In this document: positions 23,082-52,667 of the stretch, one piece after another
How positions within the stretch are numbered: the first letter of the stretch is position 1
Layout of the letters: each line of letters starts with the position of its first letter
Assembly: GCA_951406725.2 (NCBI GenBank)
Contig: OX597820.1
Span: 110,422,001-110,486,000 of the forward strand
Length of the DNA stretch: 64,000 nucleotides
Direction of reading: 5' to 3'
DNA from: Octopus vulgaris
Lineage: Eukaryota
The notes under the pieces: generated by a model
Databases searched by the model: none
Seen by the model: only the letters and a program-made list of their open reading frames with translations
Told to the model about the DNA's origin: nothing
Position numbers and translations under genes: made by a program

Positions 23082-23913
23082 TATTTTAACAACAGTGGCA
23101 TTTCTTCTCTTTTTAGGGCTTCAGGATTTCAACATGAACTTGGCAGGGTGCTATGCCTTGCAAAAGGGCAAGCTGTGATTTTGTCTGGAATTGCTTATTG
23201 AGTAGTTGCAGCTTCTTTGTGTATCTACTGGCCATTCCCCTATCTGTAAACTGGGGACACCAAAAATAATAGATTAAACAAATATTTGAAATAGATATTT
23301 TCTGTTCAACTTTATATGCATATCTACAAATATTGACAGATAAAAATTTCAGTGTCACATCTTGTGATTGCCCTGGTTTTATGAAATAGACTTCTTGTTT
23401 TAAAATGATCAAAGTTAAAATTTTCTATCAAAGTTGCATGTTAATTTGAGTTTCAAACACCAACTTAATAATAACAAAATTATTTTACTACATTCTCCAT
23501 TATTTTCAAAATTAAGTAAAGCAAAGGTGATATATTTCAACAAAAATATGAGTAACAAAGAGTTAAAGAGAAAAGACTGTGTTTAAAGAAACATGCTAGA
23601 AGAACACTAAGTTGTGTTTGATAAGAAAAATTCTATTAAACCCATTACACCTGATTAATTCACTTCAAATTTTGTAGAGATGTTATAATTATTTGTCTCA
23701 TATTTAACATCTAATAACAAATATTTCAATTAGCAGGCAAAACTTCTTTATTGGACAAAGTGAGGTACAGACACAAAAATTACCTAAAAATGGAAGCTGT
23801 ATGAATTCAGAGAATTTTGAGATTCTTTAAATATTCACTTCATCTTTTGTGATTCTGCTTTTCTTCCTTTCTTTGTTTTGCACATTTCAATTTGCTTATT
23901 TACTAAATAACTT

Positions 23914-24161
23914 TATTCTATTGTGTCTGGGGAGAGTCATTTTCTTTTTGTGCCTTATTATGTAACACACCCACCGGTAAAATTTCCACGTTTTTCTTAT
24001 TTTTATTGTCGTAAAATTTTCGTTGCATCTTGCAACATTTTCAATAGTTTAACAAAAATTTTAGGACAATAAAAATAAGAAAAACGTGTAAATTTTACCG
24101 GTGAGTGTGTTACATAATAAGGCACAAAAAGAAAATTACTCTCCCCAGACACAATAGAATA
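23914..24161. mobile_element. Palindromic (foldback) MITE with arms of about 105 bp, TA-flanked
   Basis: tattctattgtgtctggggagagt..ttgtgccttattatgtaacac is the near-perfect reverse complement of gtgttacataataaggcacaa..actctccccagacacaatagaata. Confidence 0.88.
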
Positions 24162-24838
24162 TGCTTCAACACACGAACTCATATAAAGAATCTTGCAAAC
24201 CAAATCCAAAAACGAAATATAAATAACTTTAGGTTGCTTATTAATATATAAAGACTAATTTCAAATTCAGGGCCTATATTTTTAATGTAGAGGTTCAAAC
24301 CATTTAATGCTTTAGTGTAGACTTTGGTAGAATAAGACAGCCATTCCTGCAATCAATTTAAATGTCTCAAACAGTTACAAATAGTTAGCTCGACAGTGAC
24401 TGCATCTTTGATGTTATGCTTGTTGAAATGTTCAATTTTCAAGAAATACAAGTTTTCAGTTTCAAACCCAGCCTTTGGGCATTGTGAATAGATGATTGTG
24501 TATGAAAATAGGAACATGAAATATGAGGTTAACAGCCCTCATAAAACTTTGTCATTAAAAGTACTTTAAAGTATATATAAACTTATGCATTAAGAACTTA
24601 ATTTTCTATTTGTAACCTTAACATAAGACTTAATAACATTTATGTAATAACAACTTTTAATAAAAACACTTTTTAACAACTATCCAAATAATTTGATTTT
24701 GGCTAAAATTCTACTTTTTAGAGAAAAATAAATTGTTTAAATAAAACCAAAACAGAATAACGAAATATAGAAATTATTACCACAAGTGGCAGTCTTCAAT
24801 ATTTGAATTAATAAAATATCCATAGGAATAAAATATTC

Positions 24839-24844
24839 TTTATT
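24839..24844 (-). terminator. Candidate polyadenylation signal (AATAAA) of SYCP1
   Basis: tttatt on the plus strand about 60 nt past the stop codon. The AT-rich context makes a chance match plausible. Confidence 0.35.
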
Positions 24845-24904
24845 TTTAATTTGGTTCTGTTTTTCTTTTTGTTCTCTTAATAATCTGATTGTTAACTTGT
24901 GTCC

Positions 24905-27571
24905 TTAATCATCAGATCCAAACCCAAACACAGAATCCATATCAAACCAAGCATATTTGTCAATTGAAGATGCTAGTGATCTCTTAGACTTTGGGGATTT
25001 GAAAAACTTCTTTACAGGTTGAGTTTCAGATTTTTTCACATTTGCTCTCTTTGGTTTAACAGTATTTAAATTTTGTTTCACTGGACTTTTTTTTGTCTTA
25101 TTATTTCCAGTCAAAGTTCTGGTTTTCCTACTTCTTGCTGAAATGTTATTTTCAAGATTTTGTTGATTCCCAGTAGTAAGGACCACCTCTTCTAACTTAT
25201 GATCAGAAACATTATCTTTCTTGGGTGAATTTATGTTCTTCTGGTGTTGTTTCAATAATGGGGTCCTTATTGTGATTTTATCGTTCCTTTGGCATTCAGA
25301 TACTGAGGAGTCTGAATCAGACACAAGCATCATATCATCAGAATTAAACACCACTTTTCTCTTCTTGGAAGTTAAGAAGTTTGATTTAAAGGAATTTACA
25401 TTTATTCTTGAAGGTGTCATATTAATTGGATGTTGTGGTGTCATCAGGACTGCCACTTGAGGTTGTTTTCTTGTTGGAAACACTGTTTGCATGGTATTTT
25501 CATACATTTCCTTTTTCATATTTTCTTTCTCCTTTAGCATTATATCTATTTTTTCTTCAAGTTGGATATTGTTCTCCATTTGATATTGAACATTCTGTCT
25601 TAGCTCAGAAATTTCACTTTTATACTGTAAGATCTCTTTCTCAAATTCACTTGTTTTTTCTTTCAAATCATTTTCATGTTTCAATTTTTGTTCTTTGATT
25701 TCACTTTCATTCTTTGCGTAGATTTCTTTAGTCTTAATGTCAAATATTTTCTGATTTTCTTTTTTATACTTTTCAAGAGTATTCACCATTTCTTCTTTTT
25801 GATTTTCACTTACTTTTAAAATTCTCTCCTTATCTTGAACTGCATTTTCTTTCAAAATTGTCATTTGTTTAAGTTCTTCTTTATAACCCATTAAGACTAC
25901 TTTTTCTTGTTGACATTCATCAATTTCTTTTTGTATCGTTTGAAGTTTATCTTTATATTCTTCAATTTCTGTTTCTTTTGCCTTCACTATATCTGCATAT
26001 TTACTAAATGAAATTGCATTTTCTTCAATTGTTTTATTTAATTTGTCAATGTGAGAAGAATATTTACTTTCATGATTTTTCATTTGTGTTTTTAGATTAG
26101 ATATTTCATCTTCCAGCAGATTATTTTCATTTCTTAGCTCTGATATAATATTTGTCAGTTCATTAGATTCAACTGAAGATGTTTTTTTAAGTTCTTCAAT
26201 GTTTTTCAAGGCCTCATTTAATTGTTCCACTTTTTCTTGAAATTTGCCTTTTAGTACTTCTGACTCATTGCTTAGGGTTTTGTATTTTTCTTCTAAAGTT
26301 TTAAGTTTTTCTTTTGTTTTTTCATGCATATCAGCAGCATCCACATTCAAAGCCTTTGCATTGACTATTTCATCATTTAACAATATAATGTTGCTATTGA
26401 GGTTATTTATCTTGGCAGATTTGGAATTTAACTGGGCCAGTAGATTGTCTTTATGGCTTATTTCTTGTTTTAGATTTTCACTCAACTCTGCATTCTCTAA
26501 AACTAAGATATCTTTATCACTCTTCAAGTCTTCAATCATTTTATTTGCTGATGTATATTTAACATTTAATTCTCCACATTCTTTTTCTAGTTTTTCGTAA
26601 GCTTCATTTGCTTCTTTTAAAAGATTTTCTGAAGAAGCCATTATTAATAAAGCTTCATTACTTTTCTCAGTTGTTTCAAATTTAAGGGTTGTGTATTTAA
26701 ATTCCACTTCTGAAAGACATTTCTTAGATTCTTCATAATCAAACTTTAGTTGATCTTTCTCCTCTTTAGCATCATGTAAATCTTTATTTAATTGTTCCAA
26801 CTTTTCATTTCTACAACTAATTTCATTCTGTAACTCCTTATTGATATTCTGCATATCTGCTATCCTCTTTTCTAAAACTTTTCTCTGCTTTTCCTTCTCC
26901 TGAACAATATTATTAATTTCATTTTTTAATTTATTTTCTTCGTCTTTGGCTGAAATATTTAAATCATTGAATTTTACTGAAAGTTCTTCAAATTTTTCAA
27001 AATGTTCTCTTTCTTTATATTTTAATTCATTGCTTTCTGCTTCACATTGCATCATTTTATTCTCTACAGTTTGAGAATGTTCTTTGACAATGTTACACAT
27101 TTTTCGAGTAAAATCAATTTTTTTCAAAATTTCTTCTCTGTTGCTAATTTCTTCTTGCATCTTTTGACTTAAGTTTTCATTTTCTATTTGCAATTCTATG
27201 AAAGATTTTCTAAGATTCTCAATAGTTTGGGTCAATTCCCCTATTTTTTTCTCTTTTTGTTTGCTTTCAGCTTCTGTGGAAAGTTTCCACTCCCTTATTT
27301 TTTCAGCTTCCTGTCGGAGTCGACTATGCAAGGAAAATAGTTTGCATTCTACATCTTGGGTATTTAATGATTGTTTCTCATGTTTTGGTTTTTCTTTAGA
27401 GACAAGATTTTCTTGGAGCGTTTGAAGCAGAGTTGTACTTTTATGCATAATAAGAGGCATTTTAAGTTTTTTTGTTAAACCGAGACCATAGTTTGTAGAC
27501 TCAGAACTGTTCGCCAAATTTTGATCAGTCTTCTCATAGACTTGAGACATCGATGCTAAAGTACTTTGCAT
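24905..27571 (-). CDS. SYCP1: Synaptonemal complex protein 1 (transverse filament protein), single coding exon, 888 aa
   Basis: Residues about 77-164 (LHSRLRQEAEKIREWKLSTEAESKQKE..IENLRKSFIELQIENE..TRKMCNIVKE) align without gaps to the N-terminal coiled-coil motif of mammalian SYCP1 as I recall it (VYSKLYKEAEKIKKWKVSTEAELRQKE..IEAQRKAIQELQFGNE..TRHLCNLLKE). About 600 aa of coiled coil follows. The basic S/T-P-rich tail has KKRKVVF..SDSS (cf. mammalian KKRKMAF..SDSS). There is an in-frame stop 33 nt upstream of the ATG. Confidence 0.88.
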   Translation of the reverse strand: MQSTLASMSQVYEKTDQNLANSSESTNYGLGLTKKLKMPLIMHKSTTLLQTLQENLVSKEKPKHEKQSLNTQDVECKLFSLHSRLRQEAEKIREWKLSTEAESKQKEKKIGELTQTIENLRKSFIELQIENENLSQKMQEEISNREEILKKIDFTRKMCNIVKEHSQTVENKMMQCEAESNELKYKEREHFEKFEELSVKFNDLNISAKDEENKLKNEINNIVQEKEKQRKVLEKRIADMQNINKELQNEISCRNEKLEQLNKDLHDAKEEKDQLKFDYEESKKCLSEVEFKYTTLKFETTEKSNEALLIMASSENLLKEANEAYEKLEKECGELNVKYTSANKMIEDLKSDKDILVLENAELSENLKQEISHKDNLLAQLNSKSAKINNLNSNIILLNDEIVNAKALNVDAADMHEKTKEKLKTLEEKYKTLSNESEVLKGKFQEKVEQLNEALKNIEELKKTSSVESNELTNIISELRNENNLLEDEISNLKTQMKNHESKYSSHIDKLNKTIEENAISFSKYADIVKAKETEIEEYKDKLQTIQKEIDECQQEKVVLMGYKEELKQMTILKENAVQDKERILKVSENQKEEMVNTLEKYKKENQKIFDIKTKEIYAKNESEIKEQKLKHENDLKEKTSEFEKEILQYKSEISELRQNVQYQMENNIQLEEKIDIMLKEKENMKKEMYENTMQTVFPTRKQPQVAVLMTPQHPINMTPSRINVNSFKSNFLTSKKRKVVFNSDDMMLVSDSDSSVSECQRNDKITIRTPLLKQHQKNINSPKKDNVSDHKLEEVVLTTGNQQNLENNISARSRKTRTLTGNNKTKKSPVKQNLNTVKPKRANVKKSETQPVKKFFKSPKSKRSLASSIDKYAWFDMDSVFGFGSDD

Positions 27572-27913
27572 CGTGTACGCAATGCTTGAACTGGTTTCTT
27601 TTTATATGAAAGTATTTAACATTCCATTGAAGTGCGATAACAACTGAATGCCTGTCGTCTGCTTATAAAGGTGAAGACGAGAGGAAGACGCTAAAAACTC
27701 AGCAGCGCCCCCAACAACAATTCACCAGAATTATCTCCCTTATTTCGCGCATGCGCCATTCGCCATTAATCTTCCATGTGTTTCATCTCTCTTTGATCGC
27801 GAATTGAAACTTACGAGTGTGTTGTTAGATACTCTTCACCAACCTGACTGTGTATTATTATTATTATATTTAGAGTGGTTAAAATAATAATTTATTGGCT
27901 TAAACAAACAACA
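27572..27913. promoter_or_regulatory. Putative bidirectional promoter shared by SYCP1 and SNRPA1, with NRF1-type palindrome GCGCATGCGC (27747-27756) and two CGCCATT (YY1-like) motifs (27754-27767)
   Basis: Divergent ATGs are 342 bp apart. CpGs are locally retained in otherwise CpG-poor unique DNA. Motifs were read directly from the sequence. Confidence 0.72.
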
Positions 27914-27995
27914 ATGGTTAAACTATCTGCTGAATTAATAGAACATTCAGCTCAATATACCAACCCGGTTAGAGACCGTGAATTAGATCTGCGAG
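27914..27995 (+). CDS. SNRPA1: U2 snRNP protein A' coding exon 1
   Basis: MVKLSAELIEHSAQYTNPVRDRELDLR(G); donor gag|gtaat. Confidence 0.96.
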
Positions 27996-28319
27996 GTAAT
28001 CATGTTTCCTTCTTGATCTTTTCTTTAATCATCAAACTTTCTAATTTCCAATGATATCGCTTAATAAATTTATGTTCTAGTTATTATCCCAAAAGAATAT
28101 TATTATTATCATACCTGTATAACTCTCTTTATGCGTCATGAAATTAAAAAAATTAACGACTTAATACTAGCTGAAAAATGAAACTTTTGTGCATTTTCAA
28201 ATTCTGTTACGTACAATTTGAATAAAAATCAATATAGACAAGTTGGATTAATGAAATTTGTTGTTTTAACTTGAAGCTTTGACAAATTTTTTTTTAAACA
28301 ATATGTACGAGTTTTAAAT

Positions 28320-28528
28320 ATTGGTTTCAAATTTTGACACAAAGCCATCAATTTCGGGGGCTGGAGTAAGTCGATTACATTGGCAATACTTCTCAATTGG
28401 TACTTATTTTATCAATTCCTAACGGATGGAAGGCAATGTAGATTCAGCGGAATTTGAACGTAAAGAAGGACGAAATACCGCTAAAAAATTTGTCCGGCGT
28501 GCTAACGGTTGTGCCAGCTCGCCGCCTA
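28320..28528 (-). mobile_element. tRNA-derived SINE (second family) in intron 1
   Basis: Minus-strand head aggcggcgagctggcacaaccgttagcacgccgg..gttcaaattccgc and body gataaaataagtacc. Confidence 0.7.
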
Positions 28529-28835
28529 TGACTTTTAAATATTAACAACAGACAATGGTAAATAAACCGTTTCAGACACACAACTGGTTCCTAGCCCAAA
28601 TGTCGCAACATTTCAGTGGTCAGGCCTGTATTTTCAGTTAATTTGACTGACAACATATTCTAAAATTTTGTCGCTATTTCAAATAGCACAAACAACTCCC
28701 GTATTTTCTCTAATTTTATACAGTTATTAACAATGAACTACATTTTTACTGCTTTACATTGAATAAACATGAGTGTCATTTGAGTAAATGTTATAAATTT
28801 AACTCTCCTAATAAAATTGTCTTATTGTATTTCAG

Positions 28836-28876
28836 GCTATAAAATTCCTGTTATTGAAAATTTGGGCACTACTTTG
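28836..28876 (+). CDS. SNRPA1: U2 snRNP protein A' coding exon 2
   Basis: tttcag|(G)YKIPVIENLGTTL|gtgaat. Confidence 0.95.
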
Positions 28877-28949
28877 GTGAATATCTAATTTTCTAACTAC
28901 ATACGAACTTGATTTTCTTTTTGATTTAAGTTTTTAAATATTAGCTGTT

Positions 28950-29450
28950 GAACTGGCATCCAGCCATAGAAATCTCTGCCCCAACATACTCTTGCCTGAT
29001 TCATGCAAGCATGAAAAAGTAGACTTTGAAATAAAATGATATATACATGTATATCAAACCAACGCAGTCTTCTTGCTTGCACACAATAACCAATTCCTCT
29101 TATGCCTCTCTGGAGAGGAATGAAGGTAGTATGCCCTGTTGAATTTGCAACATCAGTGTGCATGACTGACAAAGCATAACTGTGTTAAAAGAAAAGTTAG
29201 ACATGAAAGGGATTAAATGTGGCATGCAGGAGAGGAGAATGTGTTGGTTTGGACATGTGATGCATATGAGTAAAGACAGCTGTATAAAGAAGTGCCTGTC
29301 ATTGAAAGTTAATAGCACCTGTGGAAGAGAGAGACCCAGGAAGAAATGAGATGAAGTGGTGAGGACTGATCTTAGGCTGTTAGGCTCACAAAGGAAATGA
29401 CAATAGACTGAGATGTTTGGTGATAGTATGTTCTAGAGAAGACCCACCCA
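28950..29450 (+). mobile_element. RTE LINE 3' fragments, rearranged with a short inverted piece
   Basis: LKEKLD.KGI.CG.QERR.CWFGHVM and RPRK match 20860-21170. Confidence 0.7.
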
Positions 29451-31460
29451 CATCAGCAAAACTGAGAGCTAGAAGCGTTGTGTCCCACCCACATGTAACA
29501 ACAAACTTTTCACACACCTTACCCCAAGGACCCAAACTACATCTTATCTAAACTGCATCTTTCTCTTACATTTCCTCTCCATAAACTATGATTGTCTTCC
29601 AATCCCCTTCTCTGCCCTTCTTGCTCACTGTATTGCTGCTTTCCCCCACCCCATTTTTATACCCAAGTTTTTGCAAGTCACAACAATCTCTACTCCCTAC
29701 TTATACCTTCTTCACAATACCTGACCATGTATATTATGACCTCTATACCTCTCTCTTCCTTATTCTACCATCACATCTATGCTCTGATCCTTTTTACTTC
29801 ATCTCCTTCCTGGATCCTTGGCACTTCATCATCTCCTTCCTGCTCTCTCTTGCACTTTTGCTGTTTCCCACTCTTTCTCTCTTTCCCTTACTCTTTCCTC
29901 TGGTTGGGTAGCCGTATATCTCCTCTACAGTAGCACACCTGTTTTTGCCCTCATTCTTGATCACTCTGGTTCCTCTTGCATTTCTTTCCGACTACATAAC
30001 CAAATATCTTCTTTATATCTGTGTACCTGTTTCTATCCTCTTTCTTGTACCTTTCTCTTCTCTCTCTTTCTCTCTCTCACTTGTTGGGTAACCATGTACC
30101 TCCTCTATAGCAAGATACCTGTTTCTGCATCTCTATTTCTCTATCTTGCTCTAACCTTTCATCATTTGACATTAGATCACTGTTTCCAATACCCCCTCCA
30201 TTATAGCAAGACACCCGTTTCTGTCTCTCTGTTACACTCTAACTTTTCATCCTCTGACACAAGTTCCCTCCCAAAATTCCTTGCAAGTTACTTGGTGACC
30301 TTGCCAGTGCTGATGCCTCGTAAAAAGCATCCAGTCCACACTGTAAAATGGCTGATATTTGGAAGGGCATCCAGCTGTAAAAATCATGCCAAAACTAACC
30401 TCACCTGTGCTAGTGCCATGTAAAAGGCACTGAGTCCACTTTGCAGAGTTGTTGGTGTTAGGAAGGGCTGTAAAATCCCTCTCAAAACAGACACAGTAGC
30501 CTGGGGAAGACAGACATTAAATGAAGATGTGCATGTGTATATATTTATATATATATGCATATGTGTAGGGGTATGTGTGCACATGAATGGATGCACATCT
30601 GTATATATCACCAGCTTTTGTCACTACCATCATTTCAATGCATGTTTCACTATGAGTGGTCAGGTCTTTTCCTGTATTGCATATCACTCATCAGGACAGT
30701 CCTTTGTCATATCTTCTGTGATGTGCAACATCTTCAGCTCACTCTTTATTACTTCAGCCTATATCTTCCACAGTCTCTATCTTCAGTGGGTTTAACTTAG
30801 AAATCTCTTCATAAACAAGATTGATGGAGATATTTTAAGGACTGATACTTAGCTCTATTTCCATGTTATTAAATGGATGATACATTGTTACATGGAAAGG
30901 ATGCTGGTCTTTTTCAGCATTCCCAGATAATTCAGTTTGTATTAATGGAAGTGGCATAGACAGAACCATTCATATAATTTGCACACCTGTGTAATTTACA
31001 CAGGTAATTTTCAGGATAAAAATGATTAAAAAAAGCTTTTACTCGTGTCAAATTCGCACCCAAAAGTTTTCAGAATTGCCGATAGGGCCTGGGGAAAAAA
31101 GTTTTTTTTATTTAGTTGTATTTAGCATAATTTCACTTACTTATGATTAGATTTTATTAAATTTTGATTAAATAAAAATAATTTCTGTTTAACAGGCATC
31201 ACATTGAAGGCTATTAAATTATGAAGTGTTTGTGTTTATAATAAACTGTATTTTACATTTCTTGCCCATAAGAGATTATGCCGATCTTTAGCATACTTCT
31301 GTATATCTTCTCAAATCACAATCACAGGAAAAGTTGTTCATAATTCTTATCTACAAAAACATAGCTGATGAATAAATATGCACAATTGTTGCAAAATAAG
31401 TTAAATTACCAATAAACATGTAATTCCTGGTTCAAAGAAACTAATTTTTAGTCATAGTCC

Positions 31461-32310
31461 TGTACGTTATTCTGAATGACCGTTCTCTCTTCCTCTTCCT
31501 GTCAAATGCGCATGCTCTTCATATCAATGTTATTTGCATAACATTCACCCCCTCCTAGAAAAAGAAGGGAAAAAATCATAGATTAAGCCTTTCTGGAGCT
31601 TTCCAAATCCTTTGTGATCGACACAGCTGAGGGGATTCTTTTTGTTCTTGACGGTTATCTCTTGGAGGAGGGGAAATTTCAGTTGGTTCTCTGTCTGGCT
31701 GTTGAGCGACAAATGTTTGGGTTAATCTTCCCTGGTGATGCCAATTGTTTTGTGGATACTGTGGTTTCGTGACCATCTTGATAATGAACGTGAGTGTATT
31801 GGAAGTTGGCTTCGATTAAATCAACTTGGTACACGATAGGGTCATACTTGTTAGTGTGATTGTTCCTTTGAACAAGCCAGGTTCTGGGTTAAGAAGCCAT
31901 GTTGGCATAGATGTTCCTGTTACTGAACGTCTTTGATAGTTAAAAAGACGTTCATGAGAAGTGGTGTTAGTGGACGTACAAAGTAGAGATCTGATTGAAT
32001 GCAACGCATCTGGAAGAACTGTTTCACATGAAGATACTGGAAGGGCGCGGGTTTTCAAAGAGAGTAGTACTGACTTCCAAATAATACCATTATATCTTTC
32101 TACTTGGTTGTTCCAAGTGAGATTGTATGGTGTCATCCTATTCATTGCAATGTCCTTACCGAGGAGCCATTCTCTCAATCTTGTAGACATAAAGGCAGTT
32201 CCACGATCTGAATGTACATAACTGGGCATACCAAAAACTGAGAACAAATCTGTAAGACACTTTATTACAGTCTGAGCTGTGTCAGATACTGGATACCCGA
32301 ACGGAAACCG
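31461..32310 (-). mobile_element. Ty3/Gypsy integrase fragment with polypurine tract and start of the 3' LTR
   Basis: FGMPSYVHSDRGTAFMS..QVERYNG..LPDALHSIRSL. The minus strand reads aggagggggtgaa|TGttatg at about 31543-31556. Confidence 0.82.
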
Positions 32311-33572
32311 CTCATACCATTCAACTCACCACATAGCATACTACCTTCACTCTTTCCCTCAGTATAATGGAAACATGATGTAATCCGCAGCCTACGGATA
32401 TATCTCCAGAGAGTGACTTTATTTGCTACAGGATGGAATACCATGGATTATAATAACATCTTGAAATGAAATTCTTACTTTTCCTTACCATGTCTTTTAC
32501 ATTACATGACATTATTTTTTATTTTCTACCTATTTTACTCTTATCTTATTGACCATACCCTATTATTTTAACTGAGTTTCCCCACGTTAATTTCCTAACA
32601 TTTGTACTCTGAAGAAGCCTTGAGGCTCAACCCAAACTCTGTATAAATATAAAACCCAAATGAGATTTATTTGTGAGTGTATACTTATTGATATTTATTT
32701 ATATATGTAGGTGTATTCTTATAACTCTTATAGCAAACTACCACACATAGCATTTCATTCCTTTCATCTCTATCCTTACCTGAACACTCATTGTTTCTCT
32801 ATAATTACAATTAACCTTAACTTTATTTTTAATGCCAAATTTATTTATTCTACAAGTCCTCTCTAGCATATTGCTTCCCAAATAACTAAACCCTTATTTG
32901 TAAGTGTTTATTCATATATTCATATGTATAATGATATTTATACATATGGGTGTGTACTTGTGCGTGCAGACTTACATGTGTGTATGCTTGTGGGTATATA
33001 TATATCTTCTCTCTTCGCTCCTTTACGCCATTTGGGCTCAACTCTCCTCCCCTCTTCATCTAACCTCCTCCCCTTGCCCCGACTCCTACTTCTCTTCACT
33101 CCTACTTCTCTTCACCCCTACTCTCTTTCCCTCTTCTCTCTTACTTTATCTTTATTATCTCCTCCATCAAATTGAAATAAGACGTGATCTCACAACTTCT
33201 GGATATAACCTTGGACTTTACGTTTTTACTTCTTGCCATTAGGCACTCTCTTATGATGTTTTGGTATTCAATTTTTGTATGATGTGTCAACTTTCGCATA
33301 CTAGACCCCCAAAGTAGAAACAGTTGTAAGAGTTGTATTTATTTATTCCTATGATTGCTGATGTTTGTCAATTGAATCTCTTCTCCATTTTCTTCCTTGT
33401 CTTATAAATTCTGGATAAACTTTTGTTTACCTCCACTTATACCTGTTATTCACTCGTACTATTGCCTTGCAACAGTAAGCATTTGGATATAAAAAGGTAT
33501 ACCTCCATTAGTATATTGGATATTTATTATCCCTTAGATGGTTGTCTAATTTCTAACTCATACTTAATATAA

Positions 33573-33604
<32 letters not shown>

Positions 33605-33762
33605 ATGTGAATGTGTATATGTTGATATATATTTTTTAAAAGGTTGAATGCGAATTCTTCCTTTAATTGGAGTAGTTTCCAAAACATTTCTATTGTTATT
33701 TCTTCATACTTTACTTTGAATTTACTGGTGTAAATTAGCGTGGATATGAAAAGTTATATATA

Positions 33763-33805
<43 letters not shown>

Positions 33806-33825
33806 ATACATATGTGTGTGTATAT

Positions 33826-34543
33826 ATTCTTTTACTTGTTTCAGTCATTTGACTGCGGCCATGCTGGAGCACCACCTTTAGTCGAGCAAATTGACCCCAC
33901 GATTTATTCTTTGTAAGCCTAGTACTTATTCTATCGATCTCTTTGCTGAACTACCAAGTTACAGGGACATAAACACCAGCATCGGTTGTCAAGCGATGCT
34001 GGGAGGGACAAACACAGATACACAAACACACACATATTTTATTTATGCGCCCTTTTCAAGCTTAGCCAGGCTTATGGGCCCGATTTCCCGGTTTCTATGG
34101 CATGTGTTCCCCCCCCCCCCCAGCTGGACGGGACGCCAGTCCATCGCAGCATTACTCAAGAAACAGGAAGAAAGAGTGAGAGAAAGTTAGGGCGAAAGAG
34201 TACAATAGGGGTCGCCCCCACCTCCTGCCGGACCCTCATGGAGCTTTTGGTGTTTGCGCTCAATAAACACACACAACGTCCGGTCTGGGAATCGAAACTG
34301 GGATCCTCTGACTGCAAGTCCACTGCCCTAACCACTGGGCCATTGGGCCTCCACATATATATATATATATACACACACACATACATATACATATATACGA
34401 CGGGCTTCTTTCAGTTTCCGTCTGCCGAATCCACTCACAGGACTTTGGTCAGCCCGAGGCTTTAGTAGAAAACACTTGCCCAAGGTGCCATGCAGTGGGA
34501 CTGAACATAGAACCATGTGGTTGGTAAGCAAGCTACTTACCAC
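33826..34543 (-). mobile_element. Abundant tRNA-derived SINE with a second, different tRNA-headed SINE (about 34040-34352) nested in its internal microsatellite
   Basis: The outer parts match 11140-11560. The inner head reads tggcccagtggttagggcag..gtttcgattccc. Confidence 0.8.
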
Positions 34544-34616
34544 TATGTGACCACGTGTGTATCGTTGGCGATTTTCTTTCTCCGTCTTCCTTTTCTTGGA
34601 TCTTTCCTTTTTCTAT

Positions 34617-34651
34617 GTTTCTGATGAAGAGCTCTGCCCGAAACGTTAAAT
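34617..34651 (+). ncRNA. Minimal hammerhead ribozyme-like motif inside a short pyrimidine-rich element (about 34544-34755)
   Basis: gttt-CTGATGA-a-gagc-tct-gccc-GAAAC-GTT-aaat. Both core boxes are present, stem II has one mismatch, and the loopless palindromic stem III (ACGT) is of the dimeric type. Confidence 0.5.
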
Positions 34652-34769
34652 CCTCTTTCTTTTCTTTCCTGAGCATCCAGTAACACTATACTTGTTCCAT
34701 GCCCTGGCATTGTTGTGCTTGGTCTTTGTGTTTTCATGTTTGGATTAACTATACATACATAAATACATG

Positions 34770-37700
34770 ATGGCTGACCCCTCGTTGTCGAGTATGGCCA
34801 TTGCACAAGGCTTAACTGTTGGTGCTGTGATTGAATGTGACTCTTTAGTCCAGCTAAAGATCTACAATGTCTTGTACAGAATTGGCAGCTAAAACCTTTA
34901 CTGGCAATAGCCGGCTGTAGTTGTAACTGGGCTTCATGTACCTTTGCATGTTGTTTAAGTCCACCTGCCGAATTACACTCCTTTCTACATACATGACAGA
35001 TATGATTAGTATGGTGTGTAACACCACTATCAGTGACCTGGTTGTCAATCATCTGTTTCGCTTTATGACTACAAAGATAACTCTTGAGTCCAGCTTTACT
35101 GAGGCAGGGACTTGCACAGACACTGCATGTCAGCATCATAGGAAGACCCCTACCATCTGGAAGTGCAACAGCGATGCCCTCCTTGACATCCCTCCTTACT
35201 TTCTCATGTGCAGCTCGATATTTCTCAAATGTAGCTGTCCCCTCATACACAATCCTTCTCCACCTGCTACGGTCAATAGCTATGCCCTTCCATGTGTCAA
35301 AAGAGATGCAAGCATCTTTTGAGGAAGCCTTCAGCAAGTCTTTATACCTCTGTTTTGGTTTATGTGGAGGTCATTCTCCTTTAGCTAACTCTCTATAAAG
35401 GAGTTGTTTTGGCATCCTTGAATCCTTCATCCTGACCAGATGACCACTCCATCTGAGCCTTTGCTTTAACACAAGAGCTTCTATACTTACACACTGAGAG
35501 CTTTCCAATATTTCAAGATCACTGATGCGGTCCTCCCACTTAGTGCCATAGATCCATCTGAGACACATATGATGGAAACGTTCCAGTTTAAGGTGGTATC
35601 GATATGTGACCCACGTTTCGCAGGCATAAAGAAGAGAAGAGAGCACACATGCCTTGTACACTTTTATCTTTGAATACCTGCATATGTCTCGCCAACTCCA
35701 GAGGCGTCTTACCAGCCTTCGGAAGGCATCACTTACTTTCCTAATTCTGTATGGAATTTCATCATCCAAATTGCTATATCTATTAATAGTGCTTCCCAGG
35801 TAGACAAACTGATCAACTACATCATGTCATTTACATATAGATATTTGGTTCACTATACTGCTTACCAGGGGCAGGTTGGTACATGACAACAGTTTTCTTG
35901 TGACTGACTTTCAATCCTAAGGCAGTGCAAGCATCAGAGAATGCATTCAAAATGTGTTGCATATCAATCTCCGTGTGTGCTACTAGCTCACAATCATCTG
36001 CATACAAAAGGTCTCTTATGATAGAGGTAAATACCTTTGTTTTTGCAGCAAAGCGCCTGATATTAAATATGCTGCCAGAGGTTCGATAATGGATGTAAAC
36101 ACCATATCTGCAGTTTCTGAATGCAATACAGAAGACCATCGCAAAATATATGGCAAATAGTGCCAAAGTATCCCCCTGTTTCACTCCATTTTGTATTGGG
36201 ATAGGCTCTGACATTTTACCTCTAACATTAACCCTACCCTTCATATCTTCATGAAAAGACCTAACCAAAGCAAGGAACTTTTCAGGACAACCAAGTTACT
36301 TGTGGACTTTCCACAGTGCATTTCTATTAACAGTATCAAAGGCTTTTGTCAGATCAACAAAAACCTGATATAGATCTAGACCCTGTTCCACACACTTCTC
36401 CTGAAGCTGTCTAACTGAAAAGATCACATGAAAGCCATATTGACTTTCTGGAAGAACACAAAATCTGCAGCGTGTTTCAGCAGACGATCCAGAAGTACCC
36501 TGCATAAAACTTTTCCTACAACAGAAATCAATGATATTCCCCTGTACTTACCACAATCATTCCTGTTGCACTTTCCCTTATATAAGACCACCATTACTGT
36601 ATCTCTCCAGTCTTCAGGTACAGATTCATTAGCCCATATCCTACCAAACAAAGAGTGAAGTTGCTGCAGAAGTTTCTTACCAGCATACTGTAATAACTCC
36701 GCTTGTATGCCATCCATACCCGGAGACTTTCCATTATTCATCCTTGAGACAGCCACTGCAACTTCTTCCAACTTTGGTGGTTCTGCGAGAGCCGCCTTCA
36801 CAGGTAATCCAGGGACGAGTTTGAGAACATCCTCACTCACTACAGACTGCTGATTCAAAAGTTCATCAAAGTGTTCTCGCCACCTTCGCAGAATTCCTTG
36901 TAAATCAGGAAGAAGTTCTTTACCATCCCTGCTTTGAAGTGGTGTCATCAGTGAAGTCGGTCCATAAACTTCTCGCAAGAGACCATACAACAGCTTTGTG
37001 TTATTGGAATCCGCCGCCACCTGTATCTCATCAGCCTTCTTACTCCACCACGTATCCCTCATCTGAGAGAGCCTTCGCCTCACACGTAATTTTACATCCT
37101 TAAGTTACCTGTGGCTTTGCTGACAAATAGTGTGACAAAGTACACCTTTTATCAGCCAATAAATCATCTACATGTTCGTCATTTTCTTTAAACCAATCTT
37201 GATGCTTTCTTTGTACCAATCCCAGAACTTTCTTGCCTATATCATAAACTGACTTTTTAAGGGTCGGCCAATCCTCCCCAATATCTGCAACATTCATTTC
37301 CTCTCGTAAAGTTCTCTTCACACTGTTACACCTAAGATGATCAACATTCAGTCTTTTAGGCAGGGTAATCCCTGCGGCCTGGATTTTATGTTTTGTGACT
37401 AATTTCACTTTTGCACGTACTAGGCGGTGGTCAATCCCACACTCAGCCCCACGAAGAATGCGGACACACTGCACATCTCATCTATCATGCACCCTAACAA
37501 GGATGTAATCCAGAATATGCCATGTGGTCTTAAATTTATTCTTTTGTTGAAACATGGTATTGGTAACACACAGACACAGCTCCTCACACATCTGTAGGAG
37601 AAGCATGCCATTACTATTACACTTTCCACCCCATGCTTTCCAATTACAGTCCATTTGTTAAAATCTCTACTCACTCTAGAATTAAAGTCACCCAGTACGA

Positions 37701-38640
37701 TGACTTTGCCTGAGGGATATTTCTTATAATGCCCTTCAAAGCATGGTAGAAAGAATCTTTTTCATCATCAGTATAGCACATAGTTGGAGCATACACACTC
37801 ACCAAGGTCACATAATTACCTTCAAAAGAATTCTCATGGACATAAGACGCTCGTTAATCCCGACTGGGAATTTTTCCAACTTGTCCACAAGAGTAGTCTT
37901 AACAGCAAATGCCACTCCAGCCTCACCTCTAAACTCTTCATTCCTCCCTTTCCAAAAGAATGTATATTTTCCACAAGATTCTGTAAGATGACCATCTCCA
38001 GGTAATCTCATCTCAGATAAAGCAACGATGTCAAGATCAGTGTCGAAGCTCCTTTGCAACAAGCGCAGTCCTTCGTTCAGGACATTCAGAGGACTTGTGG
38101 TCAAGCAGCGTCCGTACATTCCAACAGCCAATATTCAATATTTTATTTGGTTCTATCACAGTAGCATGATGATGGGTTCAGACTGTGATGCGCTGGAGCC
38201 CCTGCTGGGCCAGACTCTTTCATTTGATGTGGTTCCAGAGTTCCTTACTGCCATTTATTTTTATACTGTTTTGGTACATCATTGATTATTTGCTTTTTAA
38301 GGCAACAGCCAGCCATTTGGTTGAGACTCACAGCACTATCAACAATCATGAATTAGTTAATCAATTTAATCAATCAATCAGTGTTGTTATCGTGCAATGC
38401 CTGTGCAAGAAGACGTTTTTAAAGTGAGGAAAGGCTGTACACTGAGTCAGTCCCACTCACTAAGTAACAGCAGCCATAATCTGAAAAGAACAAGAAGTCA
38501 ACATCATCGGTAACCATTGAGCTGCAGGTTTTATGTCGGAGTTATCCCAGTTACCTGAGTTGCCTTCTCCTAGAAGGATGCCCTAACAAAGGCTAGGGGT
38601 CCTTCACTCCCAATGGTTTAACCGCGCGATTGGGTATTCA
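34770..38640 (-). mobile_element. RTE/BovB-like LINE, near full length, degenerate, with three C-terminal C2H2 fingers; antisense in SNRPA1 intron 2
   Basis: APE motifs DIVALSE.R, VYAPT, GDFN and DHRLV. RT motifs YRGISL, FVDLTKAFDTV, GVKQG and LLYADD. LRWSGHLVRM..R.PKQLLY follows. The 5' UTR has ctaggagaaggcaactc and the tail is (atgt)n. Confidence 0.93.
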
Positions 38641-38866
38641 GTCCAATTATTTCTGTCCCCACACATGATACAGCCATAAGCTGGATAAGATAGATTTAAG
38701 GCAAAAAAAAAACATACAATATATAAAAATATTGATATACAAAATATACATATATATGATGTGAAGTATATAAAAATATATATAATGAGCAAGCTATAAA
38801 AATATACACTATATAAAATTAGTGAGAAAAAGGGAGATATACAGTAAATATATAATTACATATATA

Positions 38867-39056
38867 TTGGATGGCCATTGACTCTCAAGAATTCCTCTGC
38901 CCTTTGACGGGTTTTGTTTTTCTCCCGCAGGGTGTCCAATAAACACCCTCCTCACCAAGCATGCTTGGTGGGGTTGCCAGTTTAGTCGCCGACGGCCCGA
39001 CCATGCGACAGGTTGTACTGGGTTACATGTTACTAGTAGCACTCAAAAGTGACCTG
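38867..39056 (-). repeat. Short (about 190 bp) interspersed repeat, probably RTE-derived and non-autonomous; diverged second copy at about 53245-53435
   Basis: The two copies share gtgctact.gtaacatgtaa.ccagtacaac..ccccaccaagc.tgct..gcagaggaa.tc.tgagagtca.tggcca. Confidence 0.65.
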
Positions 39057-40459
39057 ACATAGCATGCATGCATACATACATACATACATGCATACATTTG
39101 TGTATGTGTGAGTGAGTCTCCTTGTGGTCTATATGTATATATATGGATATAAGAGTATACAGTTGTGGTTGTGTATTTTTTAGTATGTTGATGCTTCTGT
39201 GCATGTGCTTTTATGTAGGTGTACATATGGTTTTGGTTTTACTACAGTTCGTTGGGCTAGAAACTAGTTTGAGGTGTGGTTAGAAAATGTGATTAAATTT
39301 AAGGTCCATAATCTTTTAACTCTAGTTAAAGTTTACTGTTGTTCAGTACTGTTTCTTTGTTTAATCCTTATATCTCCAGCTGTTTGCTCCCCATTTTATT
39401 CATATTGTCTTTATATATTTTTTCCCTTTTGTTACCATATTTCTGTTGAAACATACATTCTTTGTTTCAATTCATCATCATCATTATATGTCTGTTTTCT
39501 ATGCTGGCATGGATTGGACAGTTTGTGAAAATATAAAATTTAGTAAAATATCTTTGTCATTATTAATCTGGTGATTTGAATATAAATTAACTTGAAATTT
39601 TGATGGGATGTTTTAAATAGATTACTTTGAAACAAGAAATTTATATGATAGTCAGGAACAGTCTCAGACAGATGAGTATGAAAAGGGTTAAGCTAATTAT
39701 TTTTTTATATTTACTTTAACTACTTCTTTTTTTATCCCTTGCTTTTTGTTGACATTAAGGATGGTTAATTCCCTGAACTTCAATCTAGCACCTTAATTGA
39801 TATGAAACAATATGTCTTTATTGTTACTGATCATAATAAACTAATTTTTTCTCTTTATATAAGTATATATAAAGAGAAAATTTGGTATGTATACATTTAC
39901 CTCTCATACCTCATGATTTTTACAGATTACATATGTATATGTAAATGTATGTGTGTTTGTGTATACCCTTGTGACATCACATGATGGTTGTAAACAAGCA
40001 CCTGTGTCATACAAGCAATGGGATCTTTCCTGTTGCTGTCACAGTTTTCAAGTCTTGAAGTTTTGTTCCAATTGTTTCCAATTTTCGTGTCCTGGTGTAG
40101 TTTTGTATGCTACTTATGGAAACAAAATTTATTTTTGCAACAAATTAATAAATAAAGAGTTGATAACTTTTAAAGTTTGTAAATTTTGTGTAAATTTAGC
40201 CATTTGAAAGCAACTGACATGTTGATGCCTGTTTCCAGAGTAACAAGCCAAAGTATAGTCTGCTGTACTCCAACCATGTGCATTGTCTTTATCTGTCTAT
40301 TTTCTTTGACACATGCCTATTTATTGAACATTTGTACTACCTCATTTTTGTCATTTTCACCTGTGTCTTTTTCCAAAACAAACAGAAATTTTCAGTATCT
40401 GTCCTATCATTACCTCATGTATTTTCCTGACTGCAGCCAACTCATTTAACCTTTCAAAT

Positions 40460-40826
40460 ATGATGGAGAAACTGAAAACCAAGAAAGATGCAAAAGGTGT
40501 TATCCCTAAAAGAAAACTATGTACAAAAAGACACTACATGAACAAGATACTTTGTGGGAAAATTTACTAGCAGTGCTCCCAAAAAGGATGCAATGAATGT
40601 CTGTTAATGATACATGTTGGAATGTAACACCCTTCCTCTTAGGAATGCACTGCTTTTTTTCCCCCCTTTATTCATGGATCAAGGCGTTGACTTTAATCCA
40701 GTTTTGTGTTGAAGAGCTGGGGATGAGCCACTGCACAGCTGTTGATTACAACAGCTATGTTCATGAAATATGTGCAGAGGACTTACTCCACTTCCCATTT
40801 CAGATAGGCAGTTCTAGGAAGATTGT
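40460..40826 (+). mobile_element. Merlin (ISXO2/IS1016-like) transposase fragment
   Basis: YSW..FCVEELGMSHCTAVDYNSYVHEICAEDL..QIG..KIV resembles the region preceding the catalytic VEIDES motif. Confidence 0.6.
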
Positions 40827-40829
40827 TGG

Positions 40830-41090
40830 GTATATGGCGTGGTGGTTAAGAGTGCAGGCTACTAACCCCAAGATTCCGAGTTTGATTCCAGACAGTGACC
40901 TGAATAATAATAATAATAATATTGAAAAATACCTTAGGAATGAGAACCTAGGTTTGAAATTTCCCCAGGACACCTGAAGAAGGCTGGAGAGTATATCAGC
41001 CGAAATGTGTTAACAACAAATAAGTTGAGGACAAATATCCGTCAAATGTAAATAATGTACATAATTCCTCATCTCGCAAATATAGAACTG
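40830..41090 (+). mobile_element. tRNA-headed SINE carrying a hammerhead-like motif (40970-41010)
   Basis: A box TGGCGTGGTGG, B box GAGTTTGATTCC and an (AAT)n linker, then acac-CTGAAGA-a-ggctg..cagcc-GAAA-t-gtgt. Confidence 0.65.
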
Positions 41091-41292
41091 TATACAAATA
41101 GGTTCATAACATACAACAGTAAAATTGCTGTGACTAGTTGGACAATAATTTCCTGGAAATTTAATAACAGTTTGTCTACCTGGGAAGCACTGTTAATTTA
41201 ATAAAATTTAGTTGAATATTGTATTATTTTTTTTTTATTTTTGTCTTTTTTTTTTGTCTGACTTTATTTTAACATGTTTGAACTACTTGTAG

Positions 41293-41399
41293 GATCAATT
41301 TGATACCATAGATTTTTCTGATAACGAAATTCGAAAACTGGATGGATTTCCTCTCTTGAAGCGCCTAAAGTGCCTACTTCTGAGTAACAACAGAATAGT
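41293..41399 (+). CDS. SNRPA1: U2 snRNP protein A' coding exon 3
   Basis: tgtag|DQFDTIDFSDNEIRKLDGFPLLKRLKCLLLSNNRI(V)|gtaagt. Confidence 0.97.
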
Positions 41400-43508
41400 G
41401 TAAGTATATTTTACATTTATCTGTGTTTGTGTGTATTTTTAATTCTTTACATTTTTCCAATAAAGAAAGAATTGCTGGCGAAGAAACAATGCTTCCTCAT
41501 AAACATTTAACTAATACTGGATATTTTTAGTGTTCTACTTACATATTGAATTTTCAGAATACAAGTTAAATCTTCTCTTCATTTACTTGAAAGCCTCAGT
41601 TTTCCAGATTATTAAAGTACTTAGTGCCATAACCAAGTGTGTCTCTGAGTACAAATGTAGTTTTATAATAATTTTAAGTTTTGAAGTTCCCTTTCTTACT
41701 AATTTTGAATGAATTAAATGTTCACATCAACTGGCAATATCAAGTATTTGTGTTCACATAGACCAGGCAGTATCTAGTTTTTGTTTTCTGTCACAATCAA
41801 CTCTCAGACCTGATGTGGAAGTTTTGGTGAGAATATTACACCAATATTTATAGTATTGGAATTTAAGAATATACTCAGCACCAATAATATATTTTTATGC
41901 TTGAGTACAGACTTTCCTACAGGTGGTGTATTATATTATTTTAGCAAGGGTGTCATGCCTTCATTTTGGAGAAGACAGCTGTTGATCAGATGTAATGTTT
42001 TCCACAGAACTGTAACATTTAGTAAGTTTTTGGGATGCAAAATGTATGGTTATTGAGTCTGACATGTTGGTTACAAATCCAAGCTTCCTGCTGATATTGG
42101 CATTATTTTCAACCTTGCATAATGTTTGCCCTTGTGTTTTTTCTTGATGTATGTTAATCTAGCAGTGTTTTGGGTTGTTAGACTGTTATCATAAGATGTT
42201 GTTCTCTTCATTTTTGAGCACTTATTTGAGATATTGTTTTTGCTGTTGTTTGGTAGGGGCTTTTTTAGCGATACTATTTTGCATCAAAATCTGTATTGGC
42301 TTATTTTCCCGTGTATTGTGTAAGTGTATATTAATATTTTGTAAAATGCAGTGATTGTAGCAGTCATAAGTGAGGAGTAATCAGATACCTTTTCTTTTAA
42401 ACCATAGCTTTATTAATCAAAATTTCCTCCACACATCATTGCACTCTCTTTTTAAAACCTGTCTGCTCATTAGTCAGTGCTTTAATGAACTCATAATGGT
42501 TTTTGAAGAAAATTATGTATAACACTTCTCCATAATATTTGTTTAAACTATCATATTTCTTTATCTTACAAGTCAGTGTTTTTATTCTTGGATACAGTAT
42601 TTATCCCTACTATTTGCAAGCTAGTTTATATATTTCAATTTCACCTTCCATAGTTCTGCAGAACTATGGAAAATAGTCCTACAGATTGTGGCATTCTGTA
42701 GAATATTAGTATTTTTTATCAGTATCCAACTATTCAATTTCTGCTTCCAAATTATGCAGTCTTCTTTCAGCCTTAGTAAAAGTTTTGCAATTAGTAGTAT
42801 GTTTTATTGCTGTTAGCACAGTATTCCTTCTTTATTCTATTGATCCATAATGTATTATAATTAGAATCCTTGTTTCTCCAGGTCTTAGGCTAAAATGATT
42901 TAAATTCTTCTTGAAAAGGAGCTCTTTTCACTGATGTTTTCTGTCATTGAGTAATAATATCGCTTAGAGATTAAATGCAAATTTATTAATGATGGCTTGT
43001 TAATCTGTCATTTTCAGTAATAGTTTTCCTCTCAAGGTTTTGAGTTATTATGTATATATGTGTATTTACACATTTACGTGTCTGGCCATTGATTCATCTC
43101 TTCTCTTGAAAATTTATATTTTGATAATTTTGCTTTCTGACTTTCATTTTCTTTTTTTCATGCAACTGGTCATGGTGATGGAATCTTCTCTATTCAGTTT
43201 TCAGTTTTTTGCAATACCCTCTCAGTCATTACTTATGTTGACACATTTTAAATTATTCCTAACTATATCTTTATGCTAGTAATGGTCTGCCAACCTTGTG
43301 TTATGAGTTTTTTTAGTTGTCCATAAAAGACTTGCTTTTGGAACTCTACCATCATTCATTTGTGAAATATGGCCACACCATCTCAGTTGAGTCTTGATTA
43401 GGAAAGTTTTTATGGGATATTATACATAGAGAAGATATCACTGTCCCTCACTCACATTTTATTTTGCATATTTTTCTCAGGCATCTCATATGAAAGCTGT
43501 CTGGTTAA

Positions 43509-44908: not shown

Positions 44909-44939
44909 TTAATATGCTTCTGGTAAGGGGTTCAAGTCT

Positions 44940-51950: not shown

Positions 51951-52667
51951 ACTAGGTTACCGCTAATTACTTCAGCTGCTTACATACTGTAAGTCTTGTC
52001 TCTGAGAGTGCAGCAATATTGTTATGTTTTTCTTTCAGAACATGAGCAACAAGTGCTGTTCAATCTGGATGTTTCTTATGGTCTTGTAGTGTTTGTACAT
52101 TCCCAGCTGCACAAAAATATTTGATTTTTTTTTTTTGTTTTCTTCTGTTTTCTTCAATATTTCAACTGCATTGTTGGACATCCTGTCATTTACAGTAGGA
52201 TGACATGATTGAGTGAGCAAACAATTTTTAGAGCATGTTTTCTAACCCCCTTCTGTATGTGGGAAAGCAATGTTATCCTAAAGAAACTGCTTTGTAGTTA
52301 AGAGGATGCAAACTATGAAATTGCTCACAGATGTTTTACAGAATGCCATCTACTTCTTACTACCATATGTGCGAAGCTCCAGCTTGAGACCACCAATGGT
52401 ATCCTCCACCTATCTCTGTCACTATCACTTCATTGCCATAGGATTTTTTTTCTTTTTGTATTCCTGTGACTCAATGACCTGCACTATGAATTTAATTATA
52501 GTGGACTTTGCTTATGGTTCACAAAACACACTCTCCCTGTAGAGCATGGCTTGTTTGAGTGCACGATGTGCTGCATGTCAGATACTGACTAGGTTACAAA
52601 TTTAGGTTTCTGACTTGATTTATCATAATCCTGCAGATTTTGAAAAGCAAAAGAAGCAGTGCTATAC

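What the first reader, a model, noticed from the sequence alone, without database searches (positions are those of the whole stretch)
24905..27571. Intronless, intact SYCP1: candidate retrogene of a core meiotic gene
Seen: 2667 bp of uninterrupted ORF with full SYCP1 architecture, in a region where every TE ORF is broken and the neighbouring gene has 41-126 bp exons and 12-kb introns. Known: mammalian SYCP1 is spread over roughly 30 exons, and SYCP1 is hard to detect in protostomes. Inference: a germline-expressed mRNA was retrocopied by one of the abundant LINEs and kept under selection. It may have replaced the parent gene or be a sex- or stage-specific paralog. Automated annotation could easily label it a generic coiled-coil protein.
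Basis: partly seen in the sequence, partly recalled or inferred. Interest (0 to 1): 0.85.

Follow-up and report, generated by a model that had tools for sequence, protein, structure and literature searches.

The report
Octopus's only SYCP1 lacks introns
The only detectable copy of the meiotic chromosome-zipper gene SYCP1 in this octopus genome has no introns, is transcribed and sits back to back with a housekeeping gene, so it is likely a reverse-transcribed copy that replaced the old multi-exon gene, as has already been described for the same gene in amphioxus and sea squirts.

Summary
Window 24905-27571 (-) is an intact 888-codon SYCP1 (Pfam SCP-1 E 4e-17; human SYCP1 αN structure E 1e-15). 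Near-identical proteins are already named SYCP1 in Octopus sinensis and O. bimaculoides. RNA-like contigs from two studies span the whole ORF unspliced, while the same runs splice the neighbour SNRPA1. The two 5' ends lie within about 130 bp of each other, head to head. Against an O. bimaculoides-like contig there are no indels and pN/pS is about 0.2-0.4. No second copy was found in the 2.8-Gb genome with exon-sensitive searches, so replacement is favoured over a paralog. Coral, annelid-like and mollusc-like orthologs have introns at four shared positions that the octopus gene reads straight through; SYCP3 in this genome keeps its introns. Full-length ORFs on 45-kb and 148-kb contigs of a sister clade suggest the event predates Octopus (probably coleoid-wide; inferred). 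Retroposition versus in-place intron loss stays open, because mollusc synteny could not be tested. The kind of event is known: SYCP1 retrogene replacement with bidirectional-promoter capture in amphioxus, and a single-exon copy in Ciona (PMC5803294). This is a probable third independent case: new member of a known kind.

The parts
24905..27571 (-). SYCP1 coding sequence, single exon, 888 aa
   Evidence: unspliced contigs
27035..27340 (-). αN-tip/CM1 head-to-head motif (aa 78-179); L81 and L85 align to the human V105 and L109 positions
   Evidence: alignment to 6f62; residue roles from PMC10588951 passages; register read from the V..L spacing in that alignment
25697..25849 (-). αC-like stretch around TLEKYKKEN (aa 575-625)
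   Evidence: conserved block; profile match to human 4yto/6f63 only (indirect)
24908..25486 (-). basic C-terminal tail with six S/T-P sites and terminal WFD..FGF motif (aa 696-888)
27572..27689 (-). 5' UTR, contiguous with the CDS, no intron seen
   Evidence: contigs end at 27679 (X8), 27689 (X15), 27671 (X20); contigs give only approximate ends
23733..24904 (-). likely 3' UTR of about 1.17 kb; AATAAA at 23747-23752 (a second at 24839-24844)
   Evidence: pieces in X8 and X20 stop at 23733 and 23735, 14 nt past the signal; weak hint, no DNA run was laid
23904..24219 (.). 316-bp palindromic insertion (MITE-like) in the 3' UTR with a 12-bp flanking direct repeat; absent in organism E
   Evidence: joint 23903-24220; 111-nt arms, 95%
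27664..27802 (.). inferred shared bidirectional promoter; CpG-enriched; palindrome GCGCATGCGC at 27747-27756 (NRF1-type site, consensus recalled)
   Evidence: SNRPA1 contigs start at 27664, 27786, 27802; 14 CpG in 27501-27800 vs 1.27 per 100 bp for the window; motif unique in window, 0 of 100 shuffles (motif chosen after seeing it)
27914..56994 (+). SNRPA1 (U2A') coding exons 1-5: 27914-27995, 28836-28876, 41293-41399, 53789-53914, 56892-56994; later exons not mapped
   Evidence: intron 1 spliced in 4 of 4 runs and exon 2-3 junction seen as a loose end in X15

Best explanation
This is the octopus's single, transcribed, intronless SYCP1 gene, which likely arose when a germline SYCP1 mRNA was reverse-transcribed and inserted next to the SNRPA1 promoter, after which the multi-exon parent was likely lost. 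Shown: identity, intact frame, no introns in CDS or UTRs, transcription, purifying selection, head-to-head position, ancestral introns elsewhere, no detectable second copy. Inferred: RNA intermediate (all introns gone, while SYCP3, SNRPA1 and transaldolase in this genome keep theirs), relocation, use of the SNRPA1 promoter in both directions, a date before Octopus split from a sister cephalopod lineage, and function as the synaptonemal-complex transverse filament (N-termini joined head to head at the midline, basic C-tails on the chromosome axes).
For: Identity. Unspliced transcript: X8 contig of 3488 nt covers 24192-27679 and X20 contig of 2890 nt covers 24786-27671, both without gaps; SNRPA1 intron 1 is spliced in 4 of 4 runs and intron bin 28050-28243 has zero depth in 4 of 4. 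Selection: 35 aa differences to O. bimaculoides P0007 among 64-72 CDS differences, pN/pS 0.22-0.43, p at most 8e-4 against neutrality; 0 indels in the CDS vs 6 in 438 nt of 3' UTR. Single copy; weak extra hits tested and empty. Sensitivity: one 40-aa exon of a distant ortholog found the locus at E 0.02 and nothing else; four SYCP3 exon hits were found. Ancestral introns: four shared positions (after K106, after Q128, in K151, in C176 of the octopus protein) in loci L016 (coral-like), L011 (lophotrochozoan-like) and L009, three of them in L036 (mollusc-like); internal isoform skips in Biomphalaria (64 aa), Babylonia (17 aa) and Mytilus (24 aa). Not SNRPA1-linked elsewhere: no SNRPA1 exon hit in 45 of 45 outgroup loci; in L010 and L030 the head-to-head partner is transaldolase, which here lies on C24. 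Age: P0004 and P0005 are full-length on 44.8-kb and 148-kb ENA contigs, sister to Octopus at 100/100; ENA-only P0147 on a 1.08-Mb contig is an exon plus intron-derived residues, so intron-blind calls exist in that source. Precedent: PMC5803294.
Against: No target-site duplication (best match 7 nt) and only a mildly A-rich stretch after the stop (top 3% of windows). No mollusc locus with upstream flank was obtained, so relocation is not shown. The head-to-head layout also occurs in intron-containing SYCP1 genes (L010, L030), so it is no sign of retroposition by itself. Two own-genome searches ran with a stricter first look, and the Pfam family search missed even the known locus. Tissue of the RNA runs is not on record and 'RNA' is the tool's guess or my inference from splicing.
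Confidence: 0.68

Rival explanations
1. In-place intron loss: a full-length cDNA recombined with the gene at its original locus (or introns were lost stepwise), so the gene never moved and the SNRPA1 link is an older mollusc or cephalopod arrangement.
For: No insertion hallmarks; one copy only, with no parent remnant; intron-containing SYCP1 is head to head with a housekeeping gene in L010 and L030.
Against: All introns are gone, including any 5' of the CM1 motif, whereas cDNA-mediated loss is usually partial and 3'-biased (established knowledge, recalled). No SNRPA1 beside SYCP1 in 45 outgroup loci, though few have long upstream flanks and none of those is clearly a mollusc.
Confidence: 0.22
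2. Retro-paralog: the multi-exon parent still exists (assembly gap, sex chromosome, or too diverged) and this copy is sex- or stage-specific.
For: Searches score only the best candidates, and short diverged exons are borderline (SYCP3 exons scored E 4e-5 to 0.13).
Against: Six searches covering CM1, the αC stretch, a gastropod full-length protein and DNA gave only this locus as a credible hit; protein searches returned one SYCP1 cluster for three Octopus records.
Confidence: 0.06
3. Timing variant: retroposition happened only in octopods, and the sister-clade proteins P0004/P0005 come from intron-aware gene models or were separate events.
For: Their DNA could not be fetched; the collection also holds eukaryotic gene models.
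Against: ENA-only entries include intron-blind ORF calls (P0147); P0005 has a 92-aa unconserved N-extension and a divergent last five residues, as raw ORF calls do.
Confidence: 0.2

Closest known systems
Octopus SYCP1 records XP_036360895.1 (O. sinensis) and XP_014790593.1 (O. bimaculoides)
   Same: Same 888-aa protein with 3 and 35 differences; O. bimaculoides SYCP1 is in the CM1 survey of PMC5803294.
   Different: None at protein level; the gene's identity is already known. Its single-exon state is not mentioned in the passages of that paper that I saw (Table S1 unseen).
Amphioxus SYCP1 retrogene replacement (Garstang and Ferrier 2018, PMC5803294)
   Same: Single coding exon, no parent copy, head to head with an unrelated gene through a proposed bidirectional promoter.
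   Different: Partner is SNRPA1, not CHIC; about 340 bp between start codons with a short unspliced 5' UTR, instead of a de novo multi-exon 5' UTR across 3259 bp; independent lineage; relocation not yet shown here.
Ciona intestinalis single-exon SYCP1 (reported in PMC5803294)
   Same: One single-exon copy at its own locus.
   Different: Ciona has a compact genome where retrogene replacement is described as common; this is a 2.8-Gb genome with 12-kb introns.
Human/mouse SYCP1 (PDB 6f62, 6f5x, 6f63, 4yto)
   Same: αN-tip residues at the V105 and L109 positions kept as Leu; long coiled coil; basic tail.
   Different: Mammalian gene is multi-exon (about 30 exons, recalled, not tested); αC likeness is only indirect; 888 vs 976 aa.

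Membership tests
SYCP1 (metazoan transverse filament) | CM1/αN motif | tested here: met
   Pfam SCP-1 61.9 bits, cut-off 23, aa 62-210; 6f62 E 1e-15
SYCP1 (metazoan transverse filament) | Groups with named SYCP1 orthologs as the species tree predicts | tested here: met
   Mollusc clade SH 99 in FastTree with 34 rows; the 17-row IQ-TREE supports the cephalopod-clade split at 100/100 but leaves deeper nodes weak
SYCP1 (metazoan transverse filament) | αC-end motif | tested here: inconclusive
   Conserved block across invertebrates; human match only by wide profile among other coiled coils, not directly
SYCP1 (metazoan transverse filament) | Basic unstructured C-tail | tested here: met
   36 K+R vs 17 D+E, six S/T-P sites; disorder itself not predicted
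SYCP1 (metazoan transverse filament) | Meiotic expression and localisation to the SC central region | not testable with these tools
   Transcribed but tissue not on record
Retrogene replacement (orphan retrogene) | Loss of all ancestral introns | tested here: met
   Four conserved CM1 intron positions read through; transcript colinear with genome
Retrogene replacement (orphan retrogene) | Parent copy absent | tested here: met
   controls 41, 43; absence limited by search sensitivity and assembly
Retrogene replacement (orphan retrogene) | Functional (intact, expressed, selected) | tested here: met
Retrogene replacement (orphan retrogene) | New genomic location relative to the parent | tested here: inconclusive
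   Different neighbour in distant animals; no mollusc synteny available
Retrogene replacement (orphan retrogene) | Poly(A) remnant and target-site duplication (expected only in young copies) | tested here: not met
   expected to have decayed at this age, so it neither supports nor excludes

The most novel reading that the evidence does not exclude
A third independent retro-replacement of SYCP1 in animals, and the first in a protostome, fixed in the coleoid ancestor by capture of the SNRPA1 promoter. Together with amphioxus and Ciona it would mark SYCP1 as a gene that repeatedly trades about 30 introns for a 4-kb intronless unit, perhaps because meiotic prophase needs it fast in intron-bloated genomes. 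The freed frame then shortened: 502 residues between the αN and αC anchors in Octopus, 544 in the sister clade, 614-656 in six gastropods and bivalves, which predicts a narrower synaptonemal complex.
Probability: 0.4. Interest if true: 0.62.

Novelty: new member of a known kind. Interest (0 to 1): 0.45.

Why it matters
Retrogene replacement of an essential gene is rare, and three independent cases for one meiotic gene would point to a repeatable bias (germline mRNA supply, promoter capture, or selection against a long many-intron locus) rather than an accident. It gives a datable marker in cephalopod genome reorganisation and a natural test of whether SYCP1 rod length sets SC width (PMC6834585 and PMC8598163 passages state that relation). 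It does not reveal a new mechanism or a new gene.

Tried and rejected
Pfam SCP-1 family search of the own genome ran in strict mode, missed the known locus and gave one sub-threshold hit (L002) with no SYCP1 similarity: uninformative. Weak own-genome hits L049, L054, L055 and the 85-bp DNA match on C6 (L068) gave no tblastn hit with 12 SYCP1 proteins; L050 gave only 16-34% repetitive matches; L051, its neighbour, was not retested. No RNA holder was on record as RNA. Parts of the ORF without cover in X15 and X17 are not used, nor is depth. L009 could not be placed as a mollusc: the CM1 tree is unresolved and summed scores favour no group. L003-L006 carry long ORFs on transcript-sized contigs and cannot be called genomic. 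A Pfam scan of 146 of 385 listed or paired upstream frames found a neighbour only for L010/L030; 132 frames, mostly from the 224 listed for the window and flanks, found only TE domains and one zinc-finger-type match, so the next gene beyond SYCP1's 3' end is unidentified (short exons would be missed). The E2F-type motif is no more frequent than chance. Table S1 of PMC5803294 could not be read. The first tree did not finish. Structure, complex and atlas tools were not run: identity was settled by sequence. Three look-ups of earlier scan findings gave nothing on this locus.

Full report
Observation. The ORF is real: window 24905-27571, minus strand, 888 aa, no internal stop. Shuffles of the CDS give at most 142 stop-free codons (1000 shuffles). 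The next longest frame in the window is 388 aa and TE domains occur only as fragments. A gene that I read as SNRPA1 starts 342 bp away on the plus strand; LRR_9 hits mark four exons, and five exons of 41-126 bp with GT-AG introns up to 12.4 kb give one open frame.

Identity. Pfam SCP-1 matches aa 62-210 at 61.9 bits (cut-off 23). The only two PDB hits at E 0.01 are human SYCP1 αN fragments, with Leu at the positions of human V105 and L109; the mouse equivalent of L109 is needed for synapsis (PMC10588951, passages). The protein clusters with records named SYCP1 in O. sinensis (3 differences) and O. bimaculoides (35), so the genome is an Octopus and the gene is not mis-annotated there. A search of 1.84 billion representatives with the CM1 region gave 186 hits; of the 20 that I looked up, 16 fell in clusters with a named source, among them Haliotis, Mytilus, scallops, Elysia, Biomphalaria, Ridgeia, Lingula, Priapulus, amphioxus, Saccoglossus, echinoderms and Sycon (P0166 came). 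The αC match is indirect (negative).

Transcript. I laid 4 of 24 listed runs, from four studies, on 23200-29000. None is on record as RNA, but all four splice SNRPA1 intron 1 at GT-AG and have no depth in one intron bin. X8 holds one gap-free contig over 24192-27679 and X20 one over 24786-27671; X15 and X17 cover parts. No joint lies inside the ORF. Pieces from X8 and X20 stop at 23733-23735, 14 nt past an AATAAA, a weak hint of a 1.17-kb 3' UTR. SYCP1 contigs end at 27671-27689 and SNRPA1 contigs begin at 27664-27802, so the two transcripts start within about 130 bp; the interval is CpG-enriched and holds a GCGCATGCGC palindrome unique in the window (NRF1 consensus recalled; PMC6719441 passages say only that NRF1 acts in mouse germ cells). 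A shared promoter is inferred, not shown. Tissue and strand are unknown.

Selection. X20's contig has 75 differences over 2886 nt. All four listed non-synonymous ones match P0007 (the table was cut, 10 CDS differences were visible). Assuming it encodes P0007, 35 changes are non-synonymous; with 3 to 11 assigned to UTRs, pN/pS is 0.22-0.43 and neutrality is rejected at p at most 8e-4. The CDS has no indel, against 6 in 438 nt of 3' UTR. This is a rough count, not a codon model.

Copy number. CM1, its second half, the αC stretch, Haliotis SYCP1 (strict mode) and the DNA found only this locus as a credible hit; weaker hits were empty or repetitive. Controls: a 40-aa exon from a distant multi-exon ortholog found the locus at E 0.02 and nothing else; SYCP3 was found as four exon hits on the same contig 5.7 Mb away; transaldolase as three. 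The Pfam search failed as a test.

Ancestral state. A metagenome scan gave 45 loci. In one search, 40 have longest plus-strand frames of 83-181 aa, 4 (L003-L006) have long ORFs on transcript-sized contigs, and 1 gave no row. In L016 (coral-like), L011 (lophotrochozoan-like) and L009 (unplaced) introns fall at the same four CM1 positions; mollusc-like L036 shows three; the octopus gene reads through all. Isoforms of Biomphalaria, Babylonia and Mytilus differ by internal blocks of 64, 17 and 24 aa at 100% identity elsewhere, and scallop-like P0147 is an exon bounded at two of those positions. So the refuting case 'intronless throughout Mollusca' fails for gastropods and bivalves. No SNRPA1 exon was hit in the 45 loci, but few have long upstream flanks; in L010 and L030 an intron-containing SYCP1 is head to head with transaldolase.

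Age. P0003, P0004 and P0005 (67-69% identical to P0003, 37-40% to the octopus protein) are sister to Octopus at 100/100. I infer squid or cuttlefish; no name was returned. P0004 and P0005 are full length on 44.8-kb and 148-kb ENA contigs, and that source includes intron-blind calls (P0147), so they are probably intronless too. Their DNA was not seen.

Mechanism. Most likely a germline SYCP1 mRNA was reverse-transcribed, inserted upstream of SNRPA1 in the opposite direction, gained transcription from that promoter, and the parent decayed (0.68). In-place cDNA-mediated loss is the main rival (0.22); no target-site duplication or clear poly(A) remnant survives and mollusc synteny could not be tested. 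A hidden parent is unlikely (0.06). A role for LINE machinery follows from general knowledge of retroposition, not from evidence at this locus.

Comparison with what is known. PMC5803294 (seen: outline, abstract, first part of Results, first part of Discussion, find passages; supplement unreadable) describes SYCP1 retrogene replacement with bidirectional-promoter co-option in amphioxus and a single-exon copy in Ciona, lists O. bimaculoides, Hapalochlaena and Sepiella SYCP1, and calls lophotrochozoan genes multi-exonic. The passages seen do not call cephalopod SYCP1 single-exon; Table S1 may. Searches SYCP1+intronless (9 papers), SYCP1+octopus (4), retrogene+cephalopod+octopus (8), synaptonemal complex+cephalopod+SYCP1 (1), SYCP1+Hydra+conserved motif+mollus (1) and intron loss/cephalopod/coleoid/intronless (9) showed no other relevant title in their listings; the library lacks most subscription papers. 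PMC10588951, PMC6834585, PMC8598163 and PMC6719441 were seen as find passages only.

Side result. The distance from the αN WK anchor to the αC TLEKYK anchor is 502 aa in the window protein, 544 in P0003-P0005 (42 aa, six heptads, more) and 614-656 in six gastropods and bivalves; Ridgeia (558) and Saccoglossus (575) are also short, and four of 20 proteins lacked an anchor. Coiled-coil length is reported to set SC width, so a narrower SC is predicted but untested.

Verdict. Real feature, gene identity already known, gene structure a probable third independent case of a published kind of event. New member of a known kind; interest 0.45.

Noticed in passing
window 23904-24219: 316-bp palindromic insertion with a 12-bp flanking direct repeat in the likely SYCP1 3' UTR, absent in organism E; its family is abundant in the RNA-like runs.
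   Followed up: partly
G000:C7:116197943-116203786 (L056-L059): Multi-exon SYCP3 lies on the same contig about 5.7 Mb from SYCP1.
   Followed up: no
L010:2938-5502 and L030:2508-9420: In two unnamed animal loci, intron-containing SYCP1 is head to head with transaldolase, followed in L030 by a photolyase-domain gene.
   Followed up: partly
P0018 (XP_014675392.1, Priapulus caudatus): An ecdysozoan protein matches CM1 at E 2.6e-28, although PMC5803294 reports SYCP1 as absent from Ecdysozoa; later literature not checked.
   Followed up: no
P0013 (ENA, 12.4-kb contig); L005, L006: Full-length SYCP1 ORFs from other unnamed animals; if these contigs are genomic they are further intronless cases. DNA versus RNA could not be told.
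   Followed up: partly
P0021 (Ruditapes), P0179 (Biomphalaria): SYCP1 sequences labelled TRAIP-like and CCDC18-like in public annotation.
   Followed up: no
window 26840 (after aa 244): Octopus lacks exactly 42 aa of coiled coil present in P0003-P0005.
   Followed up: partly
window 22816-23081: Perfect 87-bp tandem repeat, 3.1 copies at 100% identity, about 650 bp beyond the likely 3' end; recent duplication or assembly artefact.
   Followed up: no
window 43996-44352 and 57932-58287: Two dimers of the same 179-bp unit inside SNRPA1 introns.
   Followed up: no
L061:1130-2677 (-) and L060:3730-5589 (+): A 516-aa frame with no Pfam match at 1e-5 and a 620-aa reverse-transcriptase frame in the right flank.
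   Followed up: no
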